From assembly GCA_028534125.1 (NCBI GenBank), contig CM052816.1:48300001-48364000 (forward strand): a stretch of DNA of 64,000 nt, in the 5' to 3' direction. Below are positions 33,475 to 64,000 of this stretch, one piece after another. The translations under genes and the position numbers were made by a program. The stretch is from Lama glama. Its lineage: Eukaryota. The notes under the pieces were generated by a model. It ran no database searches and was not told the origin of the DNA. It saw only the letters and a program-made list of their open reading frames with translations. Position 1 is the stretch's first letter. Each line of letters opens with the position of its first letter.

Positions 33475-33862
33475 AATGGATATTGAATTTAATCAAAAGC
33501 TTTTTCTGCATCTATTGAGATAATCATATGTTTTTTATTCTTCAGTTTGTTAATGTGGTGTACCACATTGATTGATTTGTGGATACTGAAAAATCCTTGC
33601 ATCCGTGGGGTAAATCCCACTTGATCATGGTGTATGATCCTTTTAAGGCATCGTTGGAGTGTATTTTTTAGCATTTTGTTGAGGGCTTTTGCATCTGTAA
33701 TCACAAGTGATAATGGCCTATAATTTTCTTTTTTGTTTGTGTGCGGTATCTTTGTCTGGTCTTGTTATCAGGGTGATGGTGGCCCCATAGAATGAGTTCA
33801 GAAGTGTTCCTTCCTTTGCAATTTTTTGGAATAGTTTCAGAAGGATAGGTGTTAATTCCTCT
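33475..33862 (-). mobile_element. Young L1 ORF2 RT-region fragment (inverted piece)
   Basis: ORF 33489-33704 translates '[49 protein letters not shown]'. Confidence 0.95.
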
Positions 33863-34440
33863 GTCAGAGAAAACTACAATTCAAAAATACACATGCTTCC
33901 CAACGTTCACAGCAGTACTATTTACAATAGCTAAGACATGGAAACAACCTAAATGTCCATAGACAGATGAATGGATAAGATGTGATATATGTATATACAA
34001 TAGCATGTTACTCAGCCATAAAAAAAGAATGAAATAATGCCATTTGCAGTAACATGGATGGACTTAGAGATTAACATATTAAGTGAAGTAAGTCAGATAG
34101 AGAAAGACAAATATCATATGATGTTGCTTATATGTGGAATATAGAAATAAAATGCAAGTTTAATTTACAAACCAGAAATAGACTCACAGACTTAGAAAGT
34201 GACCTGTGGTTACCTGTAGGGGAAGGGGAGGGAGGGATATATTAGGAGTTTGGGATTAATAGATACACATTACTATACATAAAACAGGTGAACAACAAAG
34301 ACCTATTATATAGCACAGGGGACTATATTCAATTTCTTGTAATGAGCTATAATGGAAAAGAATCTAAATATATATATATGTGTACACATGAAACTAACAT
34401 TGTAAGTCGACTACACTTGAGTAAAATATAAGAATTCAAA
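33863..34440 (+). mobile_element. Young L1 ORF2 C-terminus and 3' UTR
   Basis: 'acacatgcttcccaacgttcacagcagtactatttacaatagctaagacatggaaacaacctaaatgtcc...aacattgtaagtcgactacactt'; followed by TSD copy 34441-34457. Confidence 0.9.
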
Positions 34441-35282: not shown

Positions 35283-35431
35283 GGGGGGAGGGTATAGCTC
35301 AAGTGGTAGAGTACATGCTTAGCATACACAAGGTCCTGGGTTCAATCTCCAGTACCCTCTCCAAAACTAATTATGCAAACATAATTACCCCTCCACCAAA
35401 AAGTAAATAAATAAAATAAAGTAGAAAACAA
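35283..35431 (+). mobile_element. tRNA-derived SINE, Vic-1-like (camelid)
   Basis: 'ggggggagggtatagctcaagtggtagagtacatgcttagcatacacaaggtcctgggttcaatctccagtacc' with A and B boxes and an A-rich tail; TSD aataaccagtgataaa (35267-35282) / aataaccaatgataaa (35432-35447). Confidence 0.9.
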
Positions 35432-35989: not shown

Positions 35990-36358
35990 GATTACAAGAT
36001 TTTGACTATTTTCTCCACAGAAATATTACATTTTATGAAAATACTGTTCCCTGTGCTATATGGTAGGACCTTGTTTGTTATCTATTTTATATACAATAGC
36101 TTGTATCTCCTAATTCCAAGCTCCTAATTTTTCCCTTCTGCCCCTGTCCCCTTTGGGTACCACAGTTTGTTTTCTATTTCTGTGACTCTGTTTCTGTTTT
36201 GTAAATAAGTTCATTTGCATCATTTTTTTAGATTCCACATATAAGTGATATTATGTGATATCTGTCTTTCTTCTATTTCACTTTGTATGGTAATCTCTAG
36301 GTCCATCCATATTGCTGAAAATGGTATTATTTCATTCTTTTTATGGCTGAGTAGTATT

Positions 36359-36395
<37 letters not shown>

Positions 36396-36895
36396 CTTAT
36401 TTATCCAATCATCTGTCAATGGGCATTTAGGTTGCTTTATAAGCAAAGGAAACTGCAAACAAAATGAAAAGACAACCTATGGACTGGGTGAAGATATCCG
36501 CAATTGATGCAACTGACAAGGGCTTAACTTCCAGAATACACAACTCATACAGCTGATACGACTAAATGACAAAAAAGCAAGTAACTCAATCAAAAAATGG
36601 GCTGAAGACCTAACCAGTCATGTCTTCAATGAACACATACAGATGGCTAATAGACACACGAAAAGATGCTCAATAATGCTAATTATCAGAGGAATGCAAA
36701 TCAAAACTACGAGGTATCACCTCACACCAGTAAGAATGGCCATCATTAAATAGTCCACAAACAATAAATGCTGGAGAGGGTGTGGAGAAAAGGGAACCCT
36801 ACTACACTGTTGGTAGGAATGTAATTTGGTACAGACACAATGCATAACAGAATGGAGATTCCTTAAAAAACTGAAAATAGACTTATCATATGATG
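35990..36895 (-). mobile_element. Young L1 with 5' inversion (3' end on minus ~35990-36436; ORF2 piece on plus ~36437-36895)
   Basis: Antisense 3' end ('gattccacatataagtgata...ctgtcaatgggcatttaggttgctt') abuts sense ORF2 ('gcaaaggaaactgcaaacaaaatgaaaagacaacctatggactggg...aaaatagacttatcatatgat'); contains (TG)n at ~36363-36393. Confidence 0.85.
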
Positions 36896-38864
36896 CCAGG
36901 TTGATGCAAACATGCCATAATTGAAGGCTAAATAAATCTGTTACATTTATGGAAGGTCATATGCAACTGGGTTAGGGAGGTATAAATAAGACAGACCCCA
37001 TTGCACAACATACAGGAAGGAATTTGGGAATGGGCATGTGGAGAAACAGATATGGAAATACACACAGATATGGAATCTCACAGATCTAGGATGACAGAGA
37101 CACGTTCTTCTAAATCAAGCAAAGGGTATTTTCTTCCAAAAAGACATTTAAGCTCAATCACAAATAATGTCAGCTGAATTGATTTGAGCATACTACACAA
37201 ACACACATTATCCTACTGTTTCCTTAATTGTTCTGTGATTCTGAGTAAAGTAACATTTCCTGATTTGGAGGTTGAAACTGGGGAAGGAAAAAGGGAGAAT
37301 TTTGATGAGAGATGGGCTGGCCACTTGCAACTTGCAGCTGATTCTTTCAGACCTTTTTATTTCTACAGTGTATCAGGTGATGTGTCGAATCACAACAAAA
37401 CTTGCCCTAGCTCTTACAAATTTTTGTTTGAAAAATGCACTTTCATACCCTCTATTCATTTGAACATTAAATAAAACTGCAGAAAAAATAAAATAAAAGA
37501 TTGCCGATAACTGCATCCAAATACAAACTAGACTTTGCCAATCAATGTGCATATTCAATAGAGAATGCAACTATAAATTCTGGCAAATTTCATCCAAATA
37601 TAGAGTTCTTGAAACATAAAATTCAAAGGTCACACCTAATAAATATCCTCCAAACTTTATAGCCCATACTGCTAAAAAGGATTGTGATTTGTGTACTGTG
37701 ATATCTAGGGTGTCATAATAAACATTTTTGATTTCCTCAGAACTTGCAGAATCATATATATTTGTGTACACAGACACACACACACACACACACATTATAA
37801 ACATGTCAAAGATAAATTTCTAGATATGCACTTACAAGACTGCTATCATGTGGCTGACCATAAAGAAGATGTTACAATATTGGCCTGGCATGAAATCATA
37901 TTATCAAAGTGTGGGGCAAGAAGAATGACCTTCTCTAATTTGGAAACAAACTGAGTATAAGAATGAAGAAAAAGGATCTCAGTAAAACAGACATTCATAT
38001 GCTATTTCTTCAAAACTATTTGATGATCTTTAAAGTGGCCATAAAGAGCCTAGAAAAGAACAAACCGATTGCACCTGACTATCTGATATTCATGTAGGTC
38101 ATGACAAAACTTATACAAACTAAACAATGACTCATTTTGTGGAAACGGGACTGTTTCAGAACACATATGCACAAATATCAGTAGAAAAGGACAGCCAAGT
38201 TAAATGAGACTTTCTCAACTTCTTTATTGAAAGTGTAACTTACTTGGAATCCAGCTTCGTTTTTAAGAGTTAAAATTCCCTCTCTGCTTCAAAACACATT
38301 TCACTGAGAAATAAAGGTTTAGCTAATGAAAACATTGAATAAGTCCCATAGTACGTGAAAATGATGAGCATTTTAGACATGAATAGCCTATAATGAATAG
38401 AAACAAAGAACATGATTATCAAACAGCTGGTCTACCAAAATAAGTCTGTAAAAATGTAGACAGACATTTCAGAGAGAAGGAAAGTGCTTCCTGCAAGCCT
38501 AACTTGCCGGTGTGAGTAAGTAAAATCCTAAGTATTGTGATCTCAAATGATTTTGTTGAAATCATCACAATGTACTGACACCAGGAATCGGTATACTGTG
38601 AGCTTGATAAGAAAACAGCTAAAAGTCAAAATGAATTTTGTTTGACTGAATTCAGGTTTACCTCTATATAAGAGAAAATAAGAGTGTCCTAAATGCTTCA
38701 GGCAATTTAAAGATGTATTATTAGAAAAGGAAACAAAGAATGAAAATAACCTACTGTATCACAGGCCAGAAAAAAAGGTCACTTTCATTTATTATTAAAT
38801 ATATGTAGTATTTGTTTAATTAGTCATATAGTATCACATTCCCTATTTTTCTTTTTAAGAGCAT

Positions 38865-46347: not shown

Positions 46348-46595
46348 CACCTGTGCCAGGTGCTTTGTTTTGTTTTGTTTTTAATAAATCTCCAGATACC
46401 ACAGAGCAGATGGGATTGAGAAAATAAATAAACCAAATTGAAGAAAATCACAGACCAAAATAGGCACAGAGAAATCCCCAATAGGTATAGAATTCATTCT
46501 GCTCAATAGACGCAACTACATTTATAGTCAGCAGGTACAAAGGATTGTGTCCTAGCAGCTAGGTGAGTGTGATTTTCTCAACAAAACTAAAGCGG

Positions 46596-49287
46596 GAGGG
46601 AAGGGAGCGGGGTCTAGGAAGGGGGGTTAAGTCCCCTCGTCCCCCCTGGTTGCCCTCGACTGGGACGGAACAAGGGAGGGGAATGATCGAGATGGCGGTG
46701 GAGGAGCCGTTTCTGGTGCCAGCCCCGCCGCCGCTGCTGCTCAAAGATGAGTCGGGCGGAGGGGGGCAGCCGCACGGTGCAACCGCACCAAGAGGCTGCC
46801 TTCGGGGAGCTCCGCGGCGGTACGCAGTGTGGGCCGGGCCGCACGCGCACTCAGCGGGGTCCCCGGCTCCTGGGACCCACAAGTAGAGCCCCGGTGCTGC
46901 ATCCACCCCTTGCGGCGGCCAGTCACAGCAGCAACTAGGGGCGGCCCCCAGGCGCAGGCGCACGGGGAGGCCCGCTTGTCGGATCCCCATGGGCGAGCCG
47001 CTTCCCCAGACGTGGGGGAGGAGCGACGAGGAGCGGGTGAAGCAGAACTGGACCCCGTAATGGCTATCAGCCCCACCTGGGGGACGTGGTGGGGAAGAGG
47101 AGAAATAGCTGTAATGTAGGGGGAGGTGGTGGAGGCTTCAAACATCCGGCCTTCAAGAGGCGCAGGCGGGTTAATTCGGACTGTGACTGTCTTACCTTCC
47201 AACTTCCTTGGGGTGGGGTAGGGGCAATATCTTTGATCCGCTGAACCTGAATAGTCTCCTGGATGAGGAAGTGAGCCGTGCACTCAATGCAGAGACCCCT
47301 AAGTCATCCCCACTTTCGGCCAGGGGGTTCAGATCTAGTGGAGACCCTCATCCCCAAAGATATTACTGACCTTCTCAGTCTGAATACTTGCACTGATGAG
47401 GCCCAAGTAGTTCTTGCTTCACCACTCAAGACTGGCCAGAAGCGGCATAGACACCGGGGACAGCACTACCACCAGCACCAGTAGCAGCAGGCAACCGGAG
47501 GGAACGATAGCCACTCCCTGCTGCCCACAGCCCCCCTCACTCCCTCACTCCATACAGAGGGCACCACACAGCAGCAGCAGCATAGGGGCCAGAACCGGGA
47601 CGTCCCCCAACCCTATGAACTCAACACAGACATCAACTGCAAGCATGAGGTCTTGTCACCCCTTCCATCTGCCCTGCAGTGTCCCTCAGGCTCCCTTTCA
47701 GCCCCTCCAGCTGCCTCACTTACCTCTGCACCCCAGTCTTCCTGCTCACAACATCGCAAATGTCGCAGGACTTCCAGCAAGTCAGAGGCAGGGGTTCGGG
47801 GTGGAGGCCAAGGTCCCAAGGAAAAGGGCCGAGGCAGTTGGGGAGGCCACCACCAGGTCCACCCACTACCTGCAGCAGGTTTCAAAAAGCAGCAGCGCAA
47901 GTTCCAGTATGGGAATTACTGCAAGCACTATGGGTACCGCAATCCTTCTTGTGAGGAGGGGCACCTTCGGGTGTTGAAGCCTGAGTGGTTTTGGGGTTGG
48001 GACGTCCTAGATCTGGGCTGCAGTGTGGGCCACCTGACCCTGAGCATTGCCTGTAAATGGGGCCTATCCTGCATGGTGGGCCTGTATATTGATGCCCTGC
48101 TCATCCACTCCGCCCGCCAAAACATCTGACACTACCTGTCTGAAGAGCTGCGCCTGCCACCCCAGACTTCTGAAGGGGACCCAGGAGCAGAGAGTGAGGA
48201 AGTGACCACAACCGTCCGAAAGAGGAGCTGCTTCCCAGCCTCAGTGTCAGCCAGCCAGGGCCCCATTGCTGCACCCCAAGTGCCCTTGGATGGAGCTGAC
48301 ACATCTGTCTTCCCCAACAATGTTGTCTTCGTCAGGGGTAATATGTGCTGGATCGAGATGAGCTGGTGGAGGCCCAAATACCTGAGTATGATGTGGTGCT
48401 CTGCCTCAGCCTCACCAAGTGGGTGCATCTGAACTGGGGAGACAAGGGGCTGAAGCGTATGTTTCACTAGATCTACCAGCACCTACATCCTGCGGGCATC
48501 CTAGTACTGGAGCCCCAACCTTGGTCATCTTACGGCAAGAGAAAGACCCTTACGGAAACAATCTACAAGAACTACTATCGAATCCAGCTGAAGCCAGAGC
48601 AGTTCAGTTCCTACCTGACATCCCAGAGGTGGGCTTCTCCAGCTATGAGCTTGTGGCCACACCCCACAACACCTCCAAAGGCTTCCAGCATCCTGTGTAC
48701 CTGTTCCACAAGGCCTGTTTCCCCAGCCACTAAGTGGCCCCCTGAACAGAAAGTGTGCAGAAGCTGCCTGCTGCTCCTCAGGACCTGGGAGAAGAGGAAA
48801 GTATCCCAAGGTCTTTCCTTTCTGGCTCCAAAAATAGTTTCCTTTCTTGGATCTGCAAGAAAGCTTTTCCTGTGTGCTGCCTTAGTCTCTTCCCTACATC
48901 TCTAGCACCTAAGCAGCAAGCCCAGCTGTGCTGGAGTTACCATCATCTTCCTCTCCCCTAGCCCACTGGGCTGGATGGCATGGACTGTTTACTGACCTCT
49001 GTTCTCCTAGGGCACAGAAGGTGGGGGGTATCAAGTACTCTAGCCTTTTTCTCCTGTTCTCCCAAGGAGAGATTCCCATTTCTCCTCGGCCCTTGTCCCT
49101 AACTGCATTTCAGTGGACCACAGATAGATGGACTGAGGGTTAAAAAGGGGAAGCTGGTGGGCAGGCATGCAGGTACTGTGAAAATCCTTCCCTCTACTAT
49201 CCCCCATTGGGAAAGGGGGTTGGGTTTGGAATGTGAGAATAGCACAATAAACTTGATGTTTAGAGCAGTGGCCCCCACCCCTCCAAA
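46596..49287 (+). pseudogene. MEPCE: Processed pseudogene of the 7SK snRNA methylphosphate capping enzyme
   Basis: ATG at 46683 (MIEMAVEEPFLVPAPPP..KDESGGG), '[25 protein letters not shown]', '[20 protein letters not shown]', C-terminus '[31 protein letters not shown]' with TAA at 48731-48733; intronless; stops at 47482-47484 and 48127-48129 plus several frameshifts; 3' UTR with AATAAA at 49246-49251; TSD aaaactaaagcgg at 46583-46595 and 49288-49300. Confidence 0.97.
46650..47180. promoter_or_regulatory. CpG island-like 5' end of the MEPCE retrocopy
   Basis: About 37 CpG in 46681-47040 by hand count, in an otherwise CpG-poor window; activity not shown. Confidence 0.6.
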
Positions 49288-50829: not shown

Positions 50830-53460
50830 TCATCAGACTGAATGAAAATAGAAGAGCCAAACATATGCTGTAGAATATGTTAAGCATCCTACTTTAAATA
50901 TAAATACATAGATTAAAAGGAAAGGGAAGGGGAAAGATGTACTAAGCAAACACTAACCAAAATAAAGATAATGCTTTATTATAAAGCAACAGCTTTAAAG
51001 ATGATTACCACACAGGTATCAGTCAAAGTAGTCTTCAGTGCAAATAAAATTGTCACAGGCAAAGAAGGGCATAATAAAATGATCAGTTCTTCAAGAAAAT
51101 ATAACAATCTTAAGTTCAAATCTACCTAAATACAAAGCTTCACAAAAAAAGGTAAAGGTTAAAAAAGAAATATTAAAAGTACAATTATAAATTGTTCAAC
51201 ACTCCTTTGTAATTAATCAACAGGACAATAGCAGAGAAAATTAGCAGAATAAAATAGACCAGAACAACACTTCTAATCAGATAGACCTGATTCATGTTTA
51301 TAGGATGCTTCATTCAACAAAAGTAAAATATACTTTCTTTTCAAGTATATATGGAACATTAATCAATATTGACCTTATTCAGGATCATAAAACAACTCAA
51401 CAAATTGATAAGATTAGAAATCATATAAAGTATAATCCTGGAATATAAGAAAATGAAATAAAGAGTCAATTAAAGAAGATATATGGAAAATCTACAAGAT
51501 TTTGAAGTTAACTCCTAAACAGCCTAGGGTCAAAATGCTCAATGAAAAATTAATTTGAATTGAATGAAAAACAAAAGTAACATATCAAAAATTTTGAGAT
51601 GCATTAATAACTGTACATAGAGTGAAAATTATAGCATTAAATGCTTATATTGGAAAAGAAGAAATTCCTCAAATTAGTAATCTGAATTTCAACCCTAAGA
51701 AACTAGAAAAAAAAAAACAAATGAACTAAAGCAAACTGAGACATAAGGAAGAAAATAACAGAGAAGACATTAATGATACTGAACACAGTAAAAGAATAAG
51801 AAAAAAAATCCAATGATTTCAAAACTAGTTTTTTGAGTGCTTAAAAAAATTCATATGTCTACACAGACGGATCAAAAAAAATGAATAAATTAAAAACAAA
51901 ACCAAAAAACAGAAGAGATACATATTACCAACACAATGAAGGAAAAAAAAAAATACCACTAGAAATCCTACATTTGTTAAAAAGACCACAATTAAACACT
52001 AGGAACAACTTTATGCCCATAAAGTCAACATTTTACATGAAATTGTCATAATTATTTCAAAAATACAGACTATTAAATCTCATTCAAGAATAGATAACCT
52101 AGATGTCTCTTATAAGCTAAATCTCTTTAAGAAACTAAATCATATTTAAAACTCTTTGAATAAGAAAAACCCAAACCCAAATTATTTCACCAGTGACTTC
52201 TACCAAATATTTCACATTTCATATTGTCATCTAGAAAAGAGGAGAAGAGGGGCTATTTCTCTATTATTTTTATGAGGTCAGAATTGTCCTAATACCAATA
52301 GCAGACAACAGTATTACAAGGAAAAAATTATACAGATCAGTATTCCTCATGAACATAAACTCAAATATCTTCTATAAAAAATCAGCAAATGAAATCAACC
52401 AATAAATAACAAGGATAATACACCACAACAGAAATGGAGTTTATTCCAAAAATTCAAGGCGATTTCAAGAGCTATACATCAATGGACATGACTCATTCTA
52501 TAAATAGACTTAACAAGCTCAAGATATTCTCAATAGATTCACAGAAAGAATCTGAAAAAAATAAACATCGATTTATGATAAACTCTCAGTAAATTCGGAA
52601 TAAAAGGAATTCCTCCACCTGGTAAGGGTATCTAAAACAATCTATTGTTAACATCATACTTAATAGTGAAGGTCTGTATGCCTTATCCCTAAGATCAGCA
52701 ACATCAGAATAATCTTTTTCCTGACTTATATTGTGCTGGATATGCTAGCCAATATAATGGTAAAGTGAAATAAATTAAAAGCACACAGAATATAAAAGTA
52801 GAAGTAGACATTTTCTATTCACAGATGAAATGACTTTCTAAGTGGAAAATCTGAAAAACTCAAAAACTTTTCTAGAATTAACAGAGTTTACCAAGTCTTA
52901 AGACACAAAGTCAACTTAAAAAAAATACCAATTTCATTCCTACCTAGTAGTGATGAGCAATTAGATTTTTTTAATTAATTTACTTTAGCACTAAATAAAA
53001 CTGAAATATTAGGTAAAAACCCAACAAAAATATGTTCAAGATATGTATGTTGAAAACTGTAAAATGGAAGTAATTAAACAACAAATAAATGAAGAGATAT
53101 ACCATGGTTTTAGACTGAAAAACTCAATATTATAAATTATTCCCAAAAAATAAACTATCCCCAATTTGATCTGTAGATTCAGTGCAAATCTAATTAAAAT
53201 TCCAACAGAATGTCTGTAGATATGTGAAGGCTGACTATAAAATTTATATGAAGAAAATAAACTTGAAATGAGAAAAATGAAACTACAGAATAAATCTGGA
53301 AGATTTCCATGCCTCAATTTAAGTATGTACTTAAATGATACACTAGTGAAGACAGTGTGGTACTGATGATAGATCCATTCCATAAAATTAGACTAGAAAA
53401 TAGATTCCCCCAAATTTAGTCAACTTTATTTTTTAAACAAACTTATAAAGCAATCCACTG
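50830..53460 (+). mobile_element. Old L1 ORF2 (endonuclease through RT), decayed
   Basis: A-rich sense L1: 'gattaaaaggaaagggaaggggaaagatgtactaagcaaacactaacc' (EN), 'ttttatgaggtcagaattgtcctaatacc', 'ggataatacaccacaac', 'tctattcacagatgaaatgact' (FADD-like), 'gtgaagacagtgtggtactg'. Confidence 0.9.
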
Positions 53461-53552
53461 GTTGCCTCTCCTTCTTCCCTTTTTCCTTTTCCATTTTGTC
53501 TCCGCACCCTCCACCCCCATCTACCTCACAAATTATATTATCCCTACCTGAA

Positions 53553-54830
53553 TCCTGGTTCGGTGTTAAGGCGGCACAGGGGACTGTCGCACACCATCAT
53601 CTTGCAGCCCACCAGCTCCCAGGTATTGTTGATGCCGTATTTAATCATGCTCGGGTGCTCCGGGAAGAGGCTCAGGTAATGACCGACAGGTTCTTGGGGA
53701 GTCCCACCTGCAGAAGCAACTCAGGACTTAAGAGCCTGGATCTTCAGTCCTCCACCTACTTCTTGAGGACTTAGTGGCAGCTGAACGCCTCCCAGCTGGG
53801 CTCTGACATAGGGGCTGTAAGCCGCTTTGAAGAGAGTTGAGTGATACCAGCTTGGTGGAGAACCCCCGCCTGCTGCCAATGAGATGGCTCAAGGTGAGGT
53901 GGTGGTCAGCCACGCCTTCAGTCCGGTAGAACTCCGCCAGGTGTGAGCCGTCCAGCATCTTATTCCAGAACACTCGGTCGACGGTGAGGTACCTGGCGGG
54001 CGCGGCTGGCTCTCTCTGGGCGGGGCGACAGAGCGCGGCAGCTTACCTGGTGCGCATGCGTGCGCAGCCCACTTTCCCGCCCCCTCCCGCTCCCTGTAGT
54101 CGCCGTTGCTCACCTGCGAGCGGCCGCAGCCCTGAGGGCTTTTGGACACAGTCCATTGGGAGCTGCAGGGCCTCCTCTGGATATCCTGGGAAGAAGGTGC
54201 CATACTGGGTGTTGCTGGGGCTGGAACAAAGCACCAGAAGTTCCAGAAGGAGCACTTGAGGAGGTTGTCTGTGGGCATGTCGGTGAACCCCAACTCTGGA
54301 AAGTTCTGCGGGAGTTGCGTGCCGACCTTGAGCAGGTTGTGCAGATGTGCTCTGTTGTGAAGGACGCTGGGGGCCGAGAAGTTGTAGCGCTTGAAGGACC
54401 TGTCCCTCTGGGAGCCGCTGGAAATCATCTCTGGCTCCAGCTCTGCCTCCTGCTTAGAAACGTTGGTGCTGAAGACACTGCCTTTTCACACCCCGTAGGT
54501 CTTCAGGGTCACTTCAGTCAGCAGTTTCCTGTTCCCGAGCTCGCTTCACTCCCTCTTGCCCGCCCTCCCCGGACCTGGGGGAGCTTCAGCTGCACCTTGT
54601 TCTCCATGCCGTCCGCCGCTCCAAACACCCGGGGCTTACTGGCTGCACCTTTGTCCACGCCGAGCCACTGGTTGGACAAGGCCTTGCTGAAGCCCATTTT
54701 GTAACTGAGCAGCCACGGGAGGTGGCCCTGGCCAGGCCTTCGGGTGCGAGGGGGAGACACGCTGAGAAACACCCAGGCCTCCTGGCTGCCCTGGCCAGGC
54801 AATGTCCTCGCCCTTGGCGGTAAGCTCCCA
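53553..54830 (-). pseudogene. FARSA: Processed pseudogene fragment of phenylalanyl-tRNA synthetase alpha subunit (about residues 61-499)
   Basis: Minus-strand peptides 'WELTAKGEDIA', 'KMGFSKALSNQWLGVDK..PRVF', 'MISSGSQRDRSFKRYNF...LLKV...GFTDMPTDN..SFWNF', 'EALQLPMD', 'HLAEFYRTEGVADHHLTL', 'MVCDSPLCRLNTEP'; colinear with no introns; many frameshifts. Confidence 0.93.
53881..54130. promoter_or_regulatory. CpG-dense patch with NRF1-like, GC-box and MYB-like motifs inside the FARSA remnant
   Basis: About 24 CpG in 250 bp by hand count; tgcgcatgcgtgcgca at 54051-54066; gggcgggg at 54018-54025; cccgccccc at 54076-54084; function inferred only. Confidence 0.45.
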
Positions 54831-54863
54831 CCAACTGATAGGAATGTTGTAAGAGATTTTATT

Positions 54864-55312
54864 TGTACTATTGGTGATGAAGGTGGTGGAGGTTTTTATA
54901 CCCCCGGGGCGGGATGTCACTGACTGCCGTTTCTGCAGTGCTGGGTATGCAGTCAGCAAAATAGCTGCTGTTCTTGTTTTGGACGTTAAGCATTTGCTTG
55001 TGCACTTCCTTCATGAACATGCAGCTTCTGAACACAGTGACCACAGTCAGACAGCAGCCGTGGCAGAGGTCAGAGGCTGCCATCGTGCTCTACCGGGTGA
55101 GCTCCAGCATTGACTGGGCCGAGTACTGCTGGCTGCCTTGGCTGCTTAGCCAGGCAAAGCCAGAATGAAGTGCAAGTAGGGGAAGTGGACCATGTTCCTA
55201 ACAGCTTGCATAGGTCAGCACTGAGCTGGTCTGGGAAAGACTGGAAGGTGGTTACCCGACTCATGCCTGCCGGCACCAGGTGGTCCAGGTCACTGTAGGT
55301 GGGCGTGGTCAT
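54864..55312 (-). pseudogene. Beta-tubulin pseudogene fragment (about residues 217-372; isotype not assignable)
   Basis: 'TTPTYSDLDHLV..MSRVTT..FPDQLSADLCKL', '[36 protein letters not shown]...[10 protein letters not shown]', 'TFITNST'; frameshifted. Confidence 0.95.
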
Positions 55313-55844
55313 CCTTTTCCAATTGCAAAAATTAAATAACTAAAACTCAGCACAAAGAAAACCTAGAAAAAATAAATCAGTTTAAAATGTCAGATTTCTT
55401 TATCCTATCTGTAAAGCTCATTAGGACCAAGCTTGCTGATCTAATTTTTATGAAATTGAGTATACATATACACATATGACTTTTATTCTTTAAAATATAT
55501 ACACAAACTTTTTATGCCACTGTGAAATGTATTTCATTTTCATCTTTTCTCAGTTCTCTGCGAGAGACCTGAAGACAATGAACTAAGGGTGAGCAAATGA
55601 CACTGAACAGAACAAGGACCAGACACAGATGTTTGATGGGGATAGCTTGCTTCCAAATAATCCTTGGTGAGTAGTCCTGCAAAAGTAGATGGCAAAATGT
55701 ACTCTCAAAGAACTAGAGCTTTTATGAGTAAAGTATGTTGCAGTGTATCAAATTGTTATTTTTCCTATAAATGAGAATAGATGAGTTCACATCTCTGATA
55801 AATAATATAGTATACCATATAAAATTAAATTCACTTTTTTGCTT

Positions 55845-56270
55845 ATTCAGTTACTGGTATTTAGAGCCAACTAGATGAGAAGTTTCTGTCCTGAATGCTG
55901 ACTATATTGTTAGTGAACAAAACTCTGACAACAGTCTATAAACTATTATGAATAACACAAAAATAAACAGTTAAGACAGGTGATTAGTTAGAGATGATGA
56001 GACAAAGGCATGATGCTGTATTTCATAAATATTATGAAGAAAACAAGTAGTGTGCTGAAATAGTGAATAATAAGACCAAGTGTCTAGACTGGTGGCCAAG
56101 TAAGACTTTTCTGAAGAGATGATATTTAATTTGAACCATGAAAAATGGAGGCAGGCTAGGTATATGAGGAATGAAGGGATTCAGGTAAGGAAATTAATTT
56201 TAGGCAGAAGGACAACATACACAAAATCTCTGCAGTGGGAAATACATTAGCATTTTTGATGTAGTAAGGC
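55845..56270 (-). mobile_element. LINE2 3' region
   Basis: 'gacttttctgaagagatgatatttaatttgaaccatgaaaaatgga...aggcagaaggacaacatacacaaaatctctgcagtggga'. Confidence 0.65.
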
Positions 56271-56517
56271 AGTAAAAGAAAATGAGAATGAGAAAATAAC
56301 ATTTCTGTACATTTAAACAAAATATATTAGCAGTTGATTAGAATGTGTGTGTGTATTGTAATAGCTGACAGCAGTTATAATTAGTCTTTTTATTAAGATT
56401 TTTCCCAAATTTGCAATTCCTGGCTATTTATTCTGGCTTTGGATGTTACCCAGCTCCACAACCATTTCTCTTACTTACCCTTTCTCGATCATGGAATACA
56501 TCTGATTCTTGAAACTA

Positions 56518-56597
56518 TCATTTATTTTATAGCAATAGAAAACAATAGGACAGAAAATGCAATTGTCATTTATTTTATAACAATAGGAATACAATAG
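56518..56597. repeat. Two-copy direct repeat, 48-bp period
   Basis: tcatttattttatagcaatagaaaacaatag (56518-56548) and tcatttattttataacaataggaatacaatag (56566-56597). Confidence 0.8.
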
Positions 56598-58061
56598 AAA
56601 GGATGCTTTTGATTTAATTAGATATTTTAAGCTTTGCTCTGCATGTCATTGTCAGGACATAGGTGCATTTACAGAGCAATTAATTGGTGACTAATATTTT
56701 GCAAAATGCCATTGATATAAGTGTAGTGCAGAAAAATCTTTAAGACTTTAGAGTAAATGGGAGAGCCGAAGAACAAAAATGATGAATTAACTGCTGCTTT
56801 AGAAAATACTTTTGTGAAATTTGATAGAGGCCAGTCATTCATCATGGTGTCAGGGGATCTTTCTTGTGCTTTGACCAAAGGAGTTAGAGATTAAGAATGG
56901 AATATGAGAGTAAAAATCAGTGAACACTTCTATGTCAAGCTGTATGGCAGATTAGATGTTTTGAAAATGTTAACATTGAAAATGGGAATAAAGGATAAAT
57001 AAATAAAATTTTGTGTGACTTCTCAAGAAATTAAGCAAGAAACAGAGACAAAAATCTAACTTGAGTCTGGAGACCTATGTGATAATTGGCCCTCTAAAGC
57101 TTCATATACACTGGGAGAGATTTGATGATGTCCATAACTATAGGCGACTTAAAGAGCTAGTAGACAAAGTGTAAACTTATAAGAGGTCTCCAGCTAGAAC
57201 GGAGAACTTTAAAAGAAGCCATAAGGATCAAAGGCTACACCCTTAGTAGATGGAAAAATTATTTGGGAGAAGTTTGAGCAGCGGAAAGAAGATGGAAAAA
57301 TCACAAAAAGGATGTCTGATTTTATAAATAACTATAATTTTAGATCTGGGAACTTTTTGAGTAATGAGGAACACAATTTCTCCTAAGTAAAGGGAGGTTG
57401 TTTTTTGAATTCATATTGTTCCACCTGTTATAATTAGGGGTCTACCATATAGAAAAATAAATTAAACTCCAAATTGGAAAATTGTAGTATTTATCTCTGG
57501 CTGTGGTGATTTTAGTGATTTGGCTTATATCACAAGAAGTAGTCTCCTTTGCTGCCTTAATTCTTTTCTGATGTGGAGGAGGTCCATGCTCACAAAAAAT
57601 ATTTCAAAAAGTGAAAATTTAATTTCACATAATCTTGCAAAGCAGAATTTGGTGCTGGTACTGGAAAAAAGGATAGCCTGAAAGCATGGAAATGAAACCA
57701 CAAATTTGCATAATGTCCATAAAATAGGATCATTTATTTCACAGACATGGATTTTTGAAATAGGTATTTAGACATTATTGACAACATTCCTTGGGGACGT
57801 GTAACATCACAAAAGTCTAGTCATATACACTGGGTCTAGAAGTGTATGCAAGCAAAAAAATAATTAAAACTATTTTTAAATCATACATTTCAGAAAGAAA
57901 TATTTTTCTTAAATAAAATATACTATTTAACCTTGTTAGCTTTTTCTATTTTGGTTTATCCTGATAACTTTTGAATAAGATTCTAATAAAACAAATAGGC
58001 TTATAGAGAAATTATCAAGAATACTTCTGATGAATAACTTTTTCATTTTTTCATGTTTCAG

Positions 58062-58444
58062 TGTATTAAAAATCAAAATTCAACTGAGTACATTTTAAAG
58101 ATCTTACTGGCTTTATTCAATGATGCATGAATCAGGCAGCATCCAGTCTATCAGGTAGAAAGTAGCTCTGAGGAGCTGTACAAAATAAAATACTTTTGTA
58201 GATAGAATGGAGCAGAAACAAGGACATTACACTAGACAAAAAAAAGTGGCCCTGTTGTTGCAAAATAACTTTTTTTTAGGGGATGACGGGGTTCTGTCTA
58301 ACTAGTGCTAACAGGTGATTCCTGATTGACTGATTTAAGATTGCATTTTGGGAGAGCTGAATCTATAATTAAGTCGAGTCTCAGTTTGATGACTGGAGCT
58401 TAGCATAAGTGACTCCATTTTGAGCCTGTTGTCTTGTTTTAACA
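58062..58444 (-). mobile_element. ERV1-type solo LTR (MER41/MER57-like)
   Basis: Minus strand begins 'tgttaaaacaagacaacaggctcaaaatggagtcacttatgctaag' and has AATAAA near its 3' end; TG...CA termini. Confidence 0.75.
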
Positions 58445-60299
58445 ATTGTTTGACAATGAAAGATACTTCATTCAGTTATTCTATCATATTGATACCCCAA
58501 AATAGCAATATTTTCTACAAATGAAATCAGTTTGAAAGATCAAAGGTGAAAAATAAGATGAGACTGCTATGAATTGTCACACAATCTATATTTTGTTATC
58601 ATTGTTTTGAAAGCTATTTGGTAATACCTGTGTTGAATAATCTATATTTGATGTTAGTTATACTTTTGTATATGGTTAACTTCCTCTCGCTAGTTATAAC
58701 ATTTGTTTTTAAGAAGGTCCAATATTATTCAAACTAGATTACACAATTTTGAATACAGTCTAAGCAAAGAATGTGGAGGGTCAAATTTTCCTTTTGAGCC
58801 TCTAGGACAGAAATGGTAACTATTTTTTTGGATGTGAAAATCAAGAAGTAATTTCTAATTGAAATCTGTCATTGTTCTCTATCATCTGAACACATTTCTA
58901 GCTTAATCGCTGGGAAAGTGTTGACATGAGAGAAGCTGAGACCAGGAATTTTCTCAAAATCTACATTTTATACTTCATTCATTCTTCAATTAGAAAAACA
59001 GGACCGGAGGACTGATGTCAATGCTATAAATTGATCAGTTAAGGCAGCTGCTACAAGATTCAATCCAGGGACTTAGCCACCCTGTTATGTTTCTTTCCAG
59101 ACTCCAGCCCTTGCCCAGCATAAAGTTTCATCATTTCTCACAGGTCATCAAGGCTTGTCATGTTAGAATACGTGTGTATCAGCAAAGTAATTATTCTATA
59201 AAATGTTTTCAAGAAACTTTAATAACCTAGCATAAAATAGTTTAATGCCAACTATAGCTAATATCTTTTTCTGTTACTTAAATGATGTTTAGGCCTATAG
59301 AAAAATGTGTTTAGGCTAGATAAATATTTACCACGGGGTGACTGAGAAATCTATACCTGCCCTAGTCATCAATTCTGACTTTTAAGCATTTATGTGTGTC
59401 ACAAGGAGCCTTGATTTATACTGGCCTCACAAAGGAACCTGGTTAATGAGGAGCTAGCTAGTCCTGTAGAAAGCATATTTACTCAAGTGCACTTCAATTC
59501 CTTGTGTATATGTGGAAAATAGATTATAACACTTTACTTTAGTATCTGTAGGCTGCTACAGAGTCAGCAGAGCAAGGACAGATTAGAAACTTGCTATGAA
59601 GCACATTGAGACACTGTGGTGCATAGTATAAAATATACTAGGAAATCATAATTGCAGATGAAACCATTTGGCCTATTGCAGTTGAATTTGGAGTGAAGTA
59701 TTTTTAGGGAAAATGTTACATGTTAGCATATAATGCAGAGGCAGAGCTTCAGAATGTAAAAGGCTTTTGTGATGAGGTTATCAACATATGATGGAAGAAG
59801 ATCCTTAGAGACCAGTAAAATGTGAGTACAGTATCCAGGTAGAAGTGTTACCATCAAAGGAAAGGTGGCTCCAATCTTCCATTGAGTTTAGAAAAAAAAA
59901 GTTATGATAATAATATTTCATATAAAGATCTGTTTTGATAAGATCAATGGCAGTCCAGGAATTCATTATACATGCTGACCTTGAATTTGTCACTGAAAGA
60001 AAAGGAAGTGGACTCAGCATTGTATTGAGTAGAAAGTGTCTGGGGTCAGTGATGCCCCTTGAAAATCATGTTAATTTTGCAAAAAAAAATGAATAAAAAA
60101 TTTAGAGTACAAGCAGTAAAGAAGTGATAAGTGCTAGAAATATTTTGAAGAAAAATTGATAGCACTTGCTGACTAATGCAATATTAGGAAATGACGAAAC
60201 TCTTTGTTTACAAATACCAGATGTTTTTACCCATCAAGAAGTTCTTCTTTACTACTCTAAGGCTATGAACACTTTTCTTTTTGTCCCCGGTGAATCAAT

Positions 60300-60660
60300 A
60301 CATTCCTGATTTAAAATCCTTCCCAATAAATCTATGATCACTCTCATTATTAATCTAACCTATCTCCATACTCTACACTTGCAATGTTCCCAACTTCAAA
60401 CCACCCACCTGGATAAGTTCAACTTTCTGCTTCATCTGCCTCAGCTCTAAACCCCTGACCACTGCTGGAAGAAAACACAGTGTTGTTCAAATAAGCACCA
60501 ATAATTATTTCCAGTTTCAGTTGTCATTCACCACTACCTCCCAATCCTTCCTGGAAGTGCTGATTAGCAGCCATTCTCATCCAACCAATTTTTCATATTC
60601 ATACTAAGCTCACTTTTAGCAGGTCTCTTGTTTCTTCACACACACACACACATACAAACA

Positions 60661-60702
<42 letters not shown>

Positions 60703-62170
60703 TTCTCTAAAAAACTGAGACCATCATCCAGTAATTCCCTCTATTTTTTGGCCCAAACACAATTTTCTGTACATATACTTCTGCTTTTCTCTTTTTGCTA
60801 GTGTTATTGTTTATAACAGATACCCTTAACTGTGTGGAAGTCTTACGACTTTCTTCTTTCGGTGGCTTGGGGCTATCAGTAATCACTGTGATTTCTACTA
60901 ACCTTCATAATATGTTTTACTCTCTGTCTTCTTAAGTATGGATGTTAAGCATACTATTGCATATAGGTAATTAAAAAAATTATTCCTTACCTTTGCTAGC
61001 TCAAGTTTTAACTTTATATATTGCCTTTGCATGCCACCTTTTTAATATTTACTTTGGTTTTCTCTTCTCTCTTTCCTTCTCCTCTCTTCATTAAAATTAT
61101 CCTCCCTGTGTTAACTCAACATTTTTCATGGTTTCCACTCAACAATTAAGTCCTGATGAAACTCAAATTGTGTAAGCATGTAAGCTTCTCTCTAAGGTTT
61201 TAGAAAAGTATAACCAGTTGTTCATTGGGCATAAAGCACGTTTAATTCAACAATATCCTATTGAACTCAAAATATCTAGCTTCCTATACCCATAGTTTAA
61301 CAGCCAGCATGATGCTTCTTTTATAATCTGTATTACTGAATGACATCATTCTCTAATAACTTGCTTGGATGTAGAGTAATATATTTGAATTTCCTTCTAC
61401 TATTTCTACTCTCACATCCAATTCATATTCATATTTTTTAGTAGCACAACCTAGATATTTTGAGTCTCTTCTTTCTGCTCTATCTTTCTGAACTTGGTCA
61501 TCCCCATCCCTGTTCTCTCCTCTCTATCTCTAGGTTACGCTCACAGTTTCTTACCTAATCTATGGGACTTTGATCTTCCTTCCACTTATGTATTTTTGCA
61601 ATGTATTTTAAGTATTTAGTTAGAATTTTCTTCCTCTAAAATCTGGACACATTATTCTGTTGTTTAAACCCCTATAGTGTCTCCCCATATCCTTAAGAAT
61701 TAAGGTCAAAGTCCAGAGTAGAAACACCTGTTTTTCCACCACCCACCTTCAGTCTCATTTCTGCTCGTCATACCTACAAGTAGTTCTGGGGGAAAAAAAA
61801 TTCAAAGCTTTCCTGAGCTCATTAGTTCTTAAATACCTTGTTCCATTTTCCAGAGTTTCTGTTTTCTACTCTTTTGCTGCCTTATTATTTTCTCAAAACA
61901 GCCCTTTAAAAAAAAATTAGAGATTTTCTAATTTGATGTGTTTCTTCTGGTCACAATTCTGTATTTCTGTAATAACCAGTGTTGCATAGCAAGCTCCCTG
62001 TCAAACCCTGATTTTATTTTCTGAATTCTATACTTGTCTGAACTCAGGAACCATACCTTAGTTATTTTTTATTCTCAAAGTCTGGTATATTTATGGTAAG
62101 TTATTTGTACCCAGTAAGATTTAATAAAATGAATTAATGATAGAAAACACTCAAGTAAGTAAGGGAAAGG
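60300..62170 (+). mobile_element. Long degraded LINE2 region
   Basis: Pyrimidine-rich L2-like text, e.g. 'tttaaacccctatagtgtctccccatatccttaagaattaaggtcaaagtcc'; boundaries approximate. Confidence 0.5.
60637..60698. repeat. Interrupted (CA)n microsatellite
   Basis: Directly visible. Confidence 0.95.
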
Positions 62171-62969
62171 TAGCAATGTTGAAAAGGTAGAGAAAGAGAA
62201 ATAAAGGTTGTTTGATAGCAAGAAAAATCTAACTGGATCAGAACAACCTCCATATACCCTCAGCTGCAAAAGCTACAAAGAGAAACTAAAAGAATAAAAG
62301 AAAATTACAGTTACCAATCTTACTGGGTATTTTTAATATAAATTTCCACATGAGTAAAAAAGCAGTGACAATTAGTGGTTTTTATAGAGCATAACATAAT
62401 GGGTCTTTTTTATGTAGTAAATTCCTATAGATATTTAAGAAATTGTCATCTAGTGAAACAAAAGTCTAAAATTATTATTTTCCTTCACCCCTTTTCTATT
62501 AATTTACACAATTCTTATCAATCCATTTTGTTGTTGGAATTGCCTATTTCACATGAGTAACATCTGCTTTCTTGTTGCATTGAAAAAGTATTATATCTGA
62601 AATTGTTCACATTCAACCTGCCTCATAAGAGAAAATTGAAAATAAAAGTAATTACTGTTAAAGAGTTGAATTGGTTCACCAAAGGCTAAGTTGACTTTTG
62701 TCTGGAGTTTAACACTTCTCAGAATGTACTTCTCCAAAACTGCAAATAACAGAAATTAATCTTAATTCATATAGTATCTCATATATAATATTTATTCATA
62801 TAATATATTTTTGATTATTTAATGCAATAAAATATAACAAATTAGAAAAATCATAGGAGGTTTTATTTGGAAGACATTTTTAAGATCATCCATTTATTTT
62901 GCAAGCAAAATAAATGTATAATAGAACTGTGTAAGGTCCAAAAGTAATTTAATCCAGACTACTTTTTAC

Positions 62970-63120
62970 CTTACTCATTCATTTATACATTTGTTTAATC
63001 AGCATTGATCAAGTTCCTACTCTGTTTCAGATATTACTTTAGGCAAGAGAGATTTAATAAGAAAAAGAGAAGTAACAAACCCCAAAGTGGTTTCCTTTTA
63101 CATGAAGCTGTACAATTTAG
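62970..63120 (-). mobile_element. LINE2 3' end
   Basis: 'tcattcatttatacatttgtttaatcagcattgatcaagttcctactctgtttcagatattactttaggc'. Confidence 0.6.
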
Positions 63121-63807
63121 TATCTATATAAATTAATTTCCATAAGTAGTGTTAACAACATAAATTCTAGAAAAAAAGTATCTGAGTATACGCAGATGAC
63201 AATGGAAACCTCACTATTTAATTTTATTATTGTATGATTGTTAAAAAATTATAGAGAACCATAACCTGATTCTCTATCATTTTATCATGTCTTTATTTTC
63301 AATGTTTAGAAGACCTAAAGTGTAAACACATTCTTATTATGCATGATAGTCCTTTAAATATTTCAGGAAAAAAAATAATATTCCTTCCTTTATATCTATA
63401 ACCAATGGTGGAGAATCAGATTTTGGCTCGCTTTAACTTTTTATCAAAGTAGTACAATAATACAATTAATTCCACCAGCATTACTCTTATTTAAATGTAT
63501 TTCTCTAACATCCTGTCATCTATCTTATGTACACTCGTAGTATGCCAACTGACCTAAAGTATTTTGAATCATGGTTGTATAACTTATCAAATTATTTTTT
63601 TCTACTGTATTCCTATAAACCATAAGCTTGAATAACTGTCTTTTTTGTTTAGATATTATTCTAGACAATAAAAGGCTTAGTCTTCCAGATTATTTTCCAT
63701 TTTTTTGGCTGATGGAATTCTATACCTCCTTCAAAACTTTATTCAAATGCCATAATTTCAATATCTTTCTTATTTTGTACCTCTCTTCTATTTGGGGAGC
63801 ATCTGAA

Positions 63808-63810
<3 letters not shown>

Positions 63811-63844
<34 letters not shown>

Positions 63845-63890
63845 CACACACACATATTTATACTCACATATATTATATATTACATATATG
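63811..63890. repeat. (TA)n/(CA)n microsatellite
   Basis: Directly visible. Confidence 0.9.
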
Positions 63891-64000
63891 TATAAGTAGT
63901 ATCTTTTGTTTTTTCTTCAGAGCCTTATTTCATATGTAATAACCAAAATAATATTTGACCTATTTTATGTCTAACTACCACAAATTAAAAATTACTGAAT

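What the first reader, a model, noticed from the sequence alone, without database searches (positions are those of the whole stretch)
53881..54130. Old FARSA pseudogene turned CpG island with promoter-type motifs (possible exapted promoter)
Seen: the FARSA remnant is much more diverged at protein level than the MEPCE copy, yet has about 24 CpG in 250 bp. It holds a near-palindromic NRF1-like site (tgcgcatgcgtgcgca, 54051-54066), two GC boxes (54018-54025, 54076-54084) and a MYB core CAACGG on the minus strand (54103-54108) where the parent encodes G-Y-G, so that motif is derived. Known: methylated pseudogenes lose CpG quickly; NRF1, SP1 and A-MYB sites mark CpG-island and germline promoters. 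Inferred: long-term germline hypomethylation, possibly as an orphan promoter built from coding sequence. Short motifs can also arise by chance in GC-rich DNA.
Basis: partly seen in the sequence, partly recalled or inferred. Interest (0 to 1): 0.7.

Follow-up and report, generated by a model that had tools for sequence, protein, structure and literature searches.

The report
GC-gaining island in dead FARSA copy
A short stretch inside an ancient, broken copy of the FARSA messenger RNA kept and gained CpG sites while the rest decayed, the footprint of an unmethylated, recombination-prone spot that may act as a promoter; this is a new example of a known process.

Summary
In detail: 24 CpG in 53881-54130 (O/E 0.85, GC 0.67), inside a dead, intronless FARSA copy that is 61% identical to its parent, against 87% for the neighbouring MEPCE copy. 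The island is partly inherited, partly new: 11 of 24 CpGs cannot come from the parent. A 115-bp core (54016-54130) shows strong local AT-to-GC change (16/35 versus 30/236 in the rest of the copy), and CpG transitions across the island run no faster than other transitions. That fits GC-biased gene conversion at a germline-hypomethylated spot. The MYB core is chance-level and aligns to G-Y-K, not G-Y-G. The NRF1-like site lies about two changes from parent sequence. Not in the finding: two new strong splice donors on the minus strand, which mutation bias rarely reproduces (about 1 in 7500 simulations), and the insert is a beta-tubulin/FARSA chimera. Methylation, transcription and conservation are untested, and no host gene was found in the window. 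Retrocopy coding sequence turned CpG-island promoter is known (PPP1R26P1 in RB1). This scan noted the same pattern in three other dead retrocopies (DMWD, PHETA1, SRSF2; unchecked notes). New member of a known kind.

The parts
53553..54830 (-). Processed FARSA pseudogene, parent residues about 61-500, 5'-truncated, intronless, 11 frameshifts, 5 stops
   Evidence: parent intron between RLAQK and KPFTP is visible in P0015 and absent from the copy
54895..55321 (-). Beta-tubulin mRNA fragment (residues about 214-362) lying just 5' of the FARSA part on the same strand; same-age control showing CpG decay
   Evidence: 41/64 identical and 4 of 7 Arg read as Cys, counted by eye on the printed alignments
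53803..54225 (.). CpG island by the 200-bp criteria (26 CpG, O/E 0.62, GC 0.63)
54016..54130 (.). Fast-evolving core with local AT-to-GC bias (W>S 16/35, S>W 5/47; 25/82 sites differ versus 85/442 in the rest of the copy)
54051..54066 (.). NRF1-like near-palindrome (11/12 match to the recalled consensus YGCGCAYGCGCR on each strand); about two changes from parent L-R-T-H-T codons
   Evidence: one parent proxy already gives an 11/12 match
54018..54025 (+). GC box, derived
54076..54084 (-). GC box, derived (small deletion plus substitutions)
54103..54108 (-). MYB core CAACGG, derived but chance-level
54108..54116 (-). Derived strong splice donor CAG|GTGAGC (first intron base 54113), at the place of a parent exon-exon junction
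54041..54049 (-). Derived strong splice donor CAG|GTAAGC (first intron base 54046), abutting the NRF1-like site
53484..53496 (+). Weak candidate left target-site duplication, inside a pyrimidine tract that may be the decayed poly(A) tail
   Evidence: 12/13 match to 55312-55324; could be chance
55312..55324 (+). Weak candidate right target-site duplication, at the edge of tubulin homology
46683..48730 (+). Separate, younger MEPCE processed pseudogene, used as the local control for ordinary decay

Best explanation
An old L1-made retrocopy (a beta-tubulin fragment joined to 5'-truncated FARSA) landed in AT-rich, gene-poor DNA of a camelid ancestor and died as a gene. One parent exon was already CpG-rich and carried most of an NRF1-like site. 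That patch escaped germline methylation, became a default (promoter-type) recombination site, and GC-biased gene conversion then pushed it further towards G/C, adding CpGs and GC boxes in a self-reinforcing loop. It is now a small orphan CpG island that probably starts some transcription, most likely leftwards (minus strand), where two new splice donors would stabilise a transcript. Shown by sequence: retrocopy, chimera, CpG gain, no excess CpG decay, local AT-to-GC bias, derived donors. Inferred: hypomethylation, recombination, factor binding, transcription (about 0.4 for a stable spliced RNA).
For: Parent exon for residues 310-341 holds 4-9 CpG per 96 nt in five proxies rebuilt from out-of-frame ORFs. 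None of these reads TpG/CpA in the copy, 2-5 are kept and 5-7 of the copy's 10-11 are new. Of 24 CpGs, 11 are new, 3 fixed in the proxies, 10 possible in the parent. Polarised W>S versus S>W: core 15/26 and 5/28; rest of copy 30/236 and 36/206; MEPCE body 3/339 and 24/370; nucleotide-level repeat 16/35 and 5/47. Simulation with the rest-of-copy spectrum plus CpG decay gives a mean of 4.6 CpG, 14 or more in about 1 of 7500, against 13 observed. The tubulin part shows 4 of 7 Arg read as Cys. Two of the 11 minus-strand donors scoring 10 or more in 64 kb lie in the 250 bp (P about 6e-4); two donors arise in about 1 of 7500 simulations under the core spectrum. Joseph et al. 2024 (PMC11161765; passages and section 8) link hypomethylated regions to PRDM9-independent hotspots in most mammals tested. 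Carelli et al. 2018 (PMC6172195; passages) link new promoters to CpG and U1-site gain.
Against: No methylation, chromatin, CAGE or read-level RNA data and no orthologue were obtained. Gene conversion alone can shield CpGs. The kept/decayed contrast is borderline against the rest of the copy (P=0.058) and not significant against the much younger MEPCE body (P=0.51). The core is gapped, so counts depend on the alignment. The parent DNA is a proxy from other, unnamed mammals, two of the five in one 90% cluster. The island is small; the merged 500-bp run has O/E 0.55. A strong plus-strand donor lies at 53894 and a plus-strand exon candidate at 55554-55666, so direction is unsettled. No host exon was found. 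Camel and alpaca are not mentioned in the main text of PMC11161765.
Confidence: 0.6

Rival explanations
1. A transient PRDM9-directed recombination hotspot hit methylated, inert DNA. Gene conversion made the CpGs and GC boxes; nothing is bound or transcribed, and the island will decay.
For: The core spectrum alone reproduces the CpG count and gives an 11/12 NRF1 match in 4.6%, two GC boxes in 5.6% and CAACGG in 5.7% of runs. The excess is W>S only; S>W does not differ from the rest of the copy (P=0.38).
Against: NRF1 match plus two GC boxes arises in 0.15% and two strong donors in 0.01% of those runs; both donors need changes that are not AT-to-GC. No parent CpG in the core reads TpG/CpA. The rest of the copy also has GC* 0.42 against 0.12 in the MEPCE body, which suggests a long-lived effect.
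Confidence: 0.2
2. The island is a selected promoter and first exon of a conserved lncRNA, or a distant alternative first exon of a gene outside the window; selection built the motifs and donors out of coding sequence.
For: The two derived donors and the motif cluster are hard to get from bias alone. All 4 GGGCGGG of the window lie in this insert. Precedents: PPP1R26P1 in RB1 (PMC3839921; passages) and CSMD3 with an RPL18 retrocopy (PMC2584115; passages).
Against: The core is the most diverged part of the copy (12/33 codons identical), which is what bias predicts and says nothing about constraint. No coding exon among the 148 longest of 521 frames of 40 aa or more outside the pseudogenes, apart from one L1 reverse transcriptase and one sub-threshold bacterial match. 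Motif tests are post hoc.
Confidence: 0.14
3. A gametic differentially methylated region like RB1 CpG 85: unmethylated on the paternal allele, methylated on the maternal one.
For: Same anatomy as PPP1R26P1, an island from a CpG-rich internal coding exon; that paper notes lower CpG loss where the male germ line is unmethylated (PMC3839921; passages).
Against: No host gene in the window; no allele-level data; PMC4122923 (abstract) found only 4 of 104 such human islands in both methylated and unmethylated states.
Confidence: 0.04
4. The CpGs are simply inherited from a CpG-rich parent exon and have not had time to decay.
For: Parent proxies carry up to 9 CpG per 96 nt here; 13 of 24 CpGs are fixed or possible in the parent.
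Against: The copy is about 3-4.5 times more diverged than the MEPCE copy, whose body has already decayed; 11 of 24 CpGs are new; the same insert decayed elsewhere.
Confidence: 0.02

Closest known systems
PPP1R26P1 CpG 85 in RB1 intron 2 (Kanber et al. 2013, PMC3839921; passages read)
   Same: Dead 5'-truncated retrocopy; island from an internal coding exon that was already CpG-rich; there it became a promoter and a spliced first exon.
   Different: Here no host gene, transcript or imprint is shown; the island is smaller and appears much older; about half its CpGs and both donors are new and came with strong AT-to-GC bias.
PRDM9-independent (default) recombination hotspots at germline-hypomethylated regions (Joseph et al. 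2024, PMC11161765; passages and section 8)
   Same: Local rise of W>S substitution and equilibrium GC at a CpG-rich, promoter-like site.
   Different: That work uses genome-wide, branch-specific substitutions at known hotspots; this is one locus, polarised against the parent protein, with no recombination or methylation data.
Novel CpG-island promoters of retrocopies (Carelli et al. 2016, PMC4772013; passages; supplements not readable) and promoter birth with CpG and U1 gain (Carelli et al. 2018, PMC6172195; passages)
   Same: Orphan islands with Sp1 and NRF1 motifs next to retrocopies; CpG and U1-site gain accompany promoter activity.
   Different: Those promoters drive the retrocopy from upstream or arise from enhancers; this one lies in the middle of dead coding sequence and could only drive a truncated non-coding or spliced-out product.
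Template-switch chimeric retrocopies (Doucet et al. 2015, PMC4476161; passages; author name recalled)
   Same: Two different RNAs joined in the same orientation within one apparent insertion.
   Different: Described chimeras mostly carry U6/U6atac at the 5' end; here both parts are protein-coding mRNA fragments, and the shared target-site duplication is only a weak candidate.

Membership tests
Processed pseudogene (L1-mediated) | Introns absent | tested here: met
   Parent introns seen in P0009 and P0015; copy is contiguous across them
Processed pseudogene (L1-mediated) | Disabled reading frame | tested here: met
   11 frameshifts, 5 stops
Processed pseudogene (L1-mediated) | Poly(A) tail and target-site duplication | tested here: inconclusive
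   Purine-rich tract at about 53460-53500 on the minus strand; 12/13 repeat
CpG island | 200 bp or more, GC 0.5 or more, O/E 0.6 or more (criteria recalled) | tested here: met
   53803-54225; 500-bp criteria met only marginally
CpG island | Unmethylated in the germ line | not testable with these tools
   Only the substitution footprint
Default recombination hotspot with GC-biased gene conversion | Local W>S excess over flanking sequence | tested here: met
   16/35 versus 30/236, P=1.6e-5; protein-polarised 20/62 versus 30/236, P=9e-4
Default recombination hotspot with GC-biased gene conversion | Double-strand breaks or crossovers independent of PRDM9 | not testable with these tools
   No recombination data
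Retrocopy-derived promoter (PPP1R26P1 type) | Island lies in sequence from the parent's coding exon | tested here: met
Retrocopy-derived promoter (PPP1R26P1 type) | Transcription start and spliced first exon | not tested
   No read-level data obtained; only donor motifs
Retrocopy-derived promoter (PPP1R26P1 type) | Host gene that receives the exon | tested here: inconclusive
   None among 148 of 521 frames scanned with Pfam; short exons and genes outside the window are not covered
Retrocopy-derived promoter (PPP1R26P1 type) | Parent-of-origin methylation | not testable with these tools
   No methylation data
A-MYB-driven germline promoter | MYB site beyond chance | tested here: not met
   P=0.11-0.28 in shuffles; 5.7% in simulation
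Template-switch chimeric retrocopy | Two RNAs adjacent, same strand, similar age | tested here: met
   Tubulin 41/64, FARSA 254/418; about 65 bp between the two tool-supported matches
Template-switch chimeric retrocopy | One target-site duplication around both parts | tested here: inconclusive

The most novel reading that the evidence does not exclude
Dead coding sequence of an mRNA-mRNA chimeric retrocopy was converted in place into a working, directional promoter and first exon: an inherited near-NRF1 site seeded hypomethylation, default recombination added CpGs and GC boxes, and two new splice donors were then fixed. If the insertion is shared across cetartiodactyls or wider, the known ancestral sequence lets each step of promoter birth be ordered on the tree.
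Probability: 0.25. Interest if true: 0.6.

Novelty: new member of a known kind. Interest (0 to 1): 0.33.

Why it matters
Because the parent protein is almost invariant, the starting sequence of this island can be inferred, which is rare for CpG islands. With two built-in controls (the tubulin half of the same insert and the MEPCE copy 5 kb away) the locus is a clean test of whether hypomethylation plus GC-biased gene conversion can build a promoter from scratch. The process itself is already described, and function here is unproven.

Tried and rejected
No whole genome is held for this window. Sequencing runs: 14 of 24 listed runs hold half or more of the words of 53400-55400, all DNA or unlabelled. 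A degenerate pattern over the donor and NRF1 site found 0 matches in metagenome contigs. The parent-DNA search there returned 80 loci, best segment 81% identical, none mammalian-like, and none was used. The first homologue search with the long pseudogene frame found nothing. The 150 listed representatives (of 317 hits) were not all read; the 18 read and the 25 best by tblastn showed no protein made from an orthologous copy. Rfam at gathering threshold found nothing in 54190-64000; the rest of the window was not scanned. Earlier-findings look-ups by place, sequence and relatives were empty. Literature: searches listed no paper on a FARSA pseudogene promoter (listings only; 20 of 2432, 20 of 43, 25 of 128 and 15 of 21 papers shown); 'fars' and 'tubulin' have 0 hits in the main text of PMC2584115; supplements of PMC4772013, which may list this retrocopy, could not be read. 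Rejected: A-MYB site as evidence (chance-level); G-Y-G alignment; simple inheritance; a functional FARSA retrogene (11 frameshifts). One out-of-frame run (P0292) was dropped as a likely chance fit to intron sequence; near-duplicate cluster members were not counted as separate proxies.

Full report
Observation. The 250 bp hold 24 CpG, O/E 0.85, GC 0.67, in a window of O/E 0.18 and GC 0.35. The 200-bp island criteria give 53803-54225; the 500-bp criteria are met only marginally. In 2000 dinucleotide shuffles the exact NRF1 core has P=0.0065, two GGGCGGG P=0.007, and CAACGG P=0.11. The consensus motifs are recalled and were picked after looking.

What the insert is. The minus strand carries FARSA residues about 61-500: 254 of 418 codons identical, 11 frameshifts, 5 stops, no introns. 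Just upstream on the same strand lies a beta-tubulin fragment, residues about 214-362, 41 of 64 identical in the best block by eye. The similar divergence, the shared strand and a weak 12/13 flanking repeat suggest one template-switch insertion; two nested insertions are not excluded. The MEPCE copy 5 kb away is 579/669 identical. It shares derived residues with a Camelus ferus predicted protein (P0294, 89%), so the window is camelid (inference). At non-degenerate conserved sites the FARSA copy outside the island differs at 85/442 and the MEPCE body at 33/709, so it is about 3 to 4.5 times older. With recalled mammalian rates that is very roughly 50-100 million years, which predicts orthologues outside camelids.

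Inherited or new? No parent DNA was reachable. I inferred degenerate parent DNA by combining the conserved protein (44-46 mammalian FARSA sequences) with out-of-frame ORFs from unnamed records that match the mammalian exons. The exon for residues 310-341 has 4-9 CpG per 96 nt in five proxies, more than most other segments rebuilt (1-16 CpG in 75-267 nt). So the island had a CpG-rich seed. In the copy none of those CpGs reads TpG or CpA, 2-5 are kept, and 5-7 of 10-11 are new. Over the whole finding, 11 of 24 CpGs are new, 3 are fixed in the proxies and 10 are possible. The NRF1-like 16-mer differs from the pooled proxies by about one substitution and one insertion, and one proxy already has an 11/12 match. 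CAACGG aligns to G-Y-K codons, not G-Y-G.

Substitution spectrum. At sites fixed by invariant residues, W>S is 20/62 in the finding (15/26 in 54000-54130, 5/36 in 53881-53999), 30/236 in the rest of the copy and 3/339 in the MEPCE body. S>W is 10/56, 36/206 and 24/370. A nucleotide-level alignment gives 16/35 and 5/47 for 54016-54130 (P=1.6e-5 for W>S, P=0.38 for S>W). The bias is strong and local. CpG-context transitions equal the non-CpG rate in the finding (3/22 against 5/34) but are about four times higher in the rest of the copy (12/36 against 13/170) and eight times higher in the MEPCE body (9/38 against 10/332). The kept/decayed contrast is borderline against the rest (P=0.058) and not significant against MEPCE (P=0.51). 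The tubulin half shows 4 of 7 Arg read as Cys. The core is gapped and these counts depend on alignment; two alignment methods agreed.

Simulation. Evolving the proxies 7500 times under the core spectrum without CpG decay gives a mean of 13.3 CpG (13 observed), an 11/12 NRF1 match in 4.6%, two GC boxes in 5.6%, both in 0.15%, and two strong donors in 0.01%. Under the rest-of-copy spectrum with CpG decay the mean is 4.6. The rates are rough and fitted to the same data. The CpG count is therefore explained by bias plus lack of decay; the motif cluster is only partly explained.

Donors. Two strong minus-strand donors flank the NRF1 site (first intron bases 54113 and 54046). They are 2 of the 11 minus-strand donors scoring 10 or more in 64 kb, P about 6e-4 (matrix recalled), and both are derived. 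The first falls at a parent exon junction, where the exonic CAG-G context was inherited. On the minus strand both precede the first poly(A) signal (53645); on the plus strand weaker donors (54820, 55097) precede the signal at 55331. A leftward transcript is my best guess, but a plus-strand exon candidate at 55554-55666 also scores well. Pfam found no host exon in 148 of 521 frames. Expression is untested.

Mechanism. Most likely (0.6): seed exon, escape from germline methylation, default recombination with GC-biased conversion, a small orphan island, probably some transcription. Joseph et al. 2024 report PRDM9-independent hotspots at hypomethylated regions in most of 52 mammals (PMC11161765; passages and section 8). 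Qiu et al. 2026 report hypermutation and gene conversion just downstream of testis-active start sites (PMC13712754; abstract only), which fits the faster divergence of the core. Rivals: a transient hotspot on inert DNA (0.2), a selected first exon (0.14), an imprinted region (0.04), plain inheritance (0.02).

Comparison and novelty. It works like PPP1R26P1 CpG 85 in RB1 (PMC3839921; passages), but transcript, host gene and imprint are not shown, so it is not filed as a proven member. Retrotransposition as a source of islands is established (PMC4509998, passages; PMC4122923, abstract; PMC4772013, passages). I found no paper on this locus in the listings; supplements that might list it were unreadable. 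Earlier notes of this scan describe the same footprint in DMWD, PHETA1 and SRSF2 retrocopies; they are unchecked and not counted as support. Verdict: real feature, new member of a known kind, interest 0.33; 0.6 if the donors prove used and conserved (probability 0.25).

Noticed in passing
window 54895-55321 (-), next to 53553-54830 (-): Beta-tubulin fragment joined to the FARSA copy: an apparent mRNA-mRNA chimeric retrocopy, a rarer form than U6 chimeras. The tubulin isotype could not be told.
   Followed up: partly
window 46503-47210 (+): The MEPCE copy keeps a larger CpG island from its parent's 5' end (49 CpG, O/E 0.70) with no AT-to-GC gain (W>S 0/22). Two retrocopy islands 7 kb apart in otherwise CpG-poor DNA.
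   Followed up: partly
window 47900-48120 (+): Against the probable Camelus ferus orthologue P0294 the MEPCE copy has several Arg-to-Trp/His/Cys changes, i.e. continuing CpG decay.
   Followed up: partly
window 55554-55588 or 55554-55666 (+): Well-scoring exon candidate (pyrimidine acceptor, two alternative donors) 1.4 kb right of the island; no open frame in the longer form.
   Followed up: no
window 54108-54116 (-): The derived donor sits at the parent's exon-exon junction, and the apparent 3-nt insertion there recreates a donor-like G|GTGAG; cause unexplained.
   Followed up: no
window about 50850-53460 (+) and from about 55320: A-rich sequence that looks like an old, decayed L1 on both sides of the insert (recognised from recall; the few frames scanned there gave no Pfam match).
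   Followed up: no
window 33492-33764 (-): L1-type reverse transcriptase fragment (PF00078, E 5e-13), next to inverted L1-like pieces at about 33860-34400 and 36200-36900.
   Followed up: no
window about 35284-35420 (+): tRNA-derived SINE that resembles the camelid family (recalled, not tested).
   Followed up: no
window 53460-53510: Possible poly(A) tail of the insert, now heavily A-to-G substituted on the minus strand, in line with the G/C drift of the copy.
   Followed up: no
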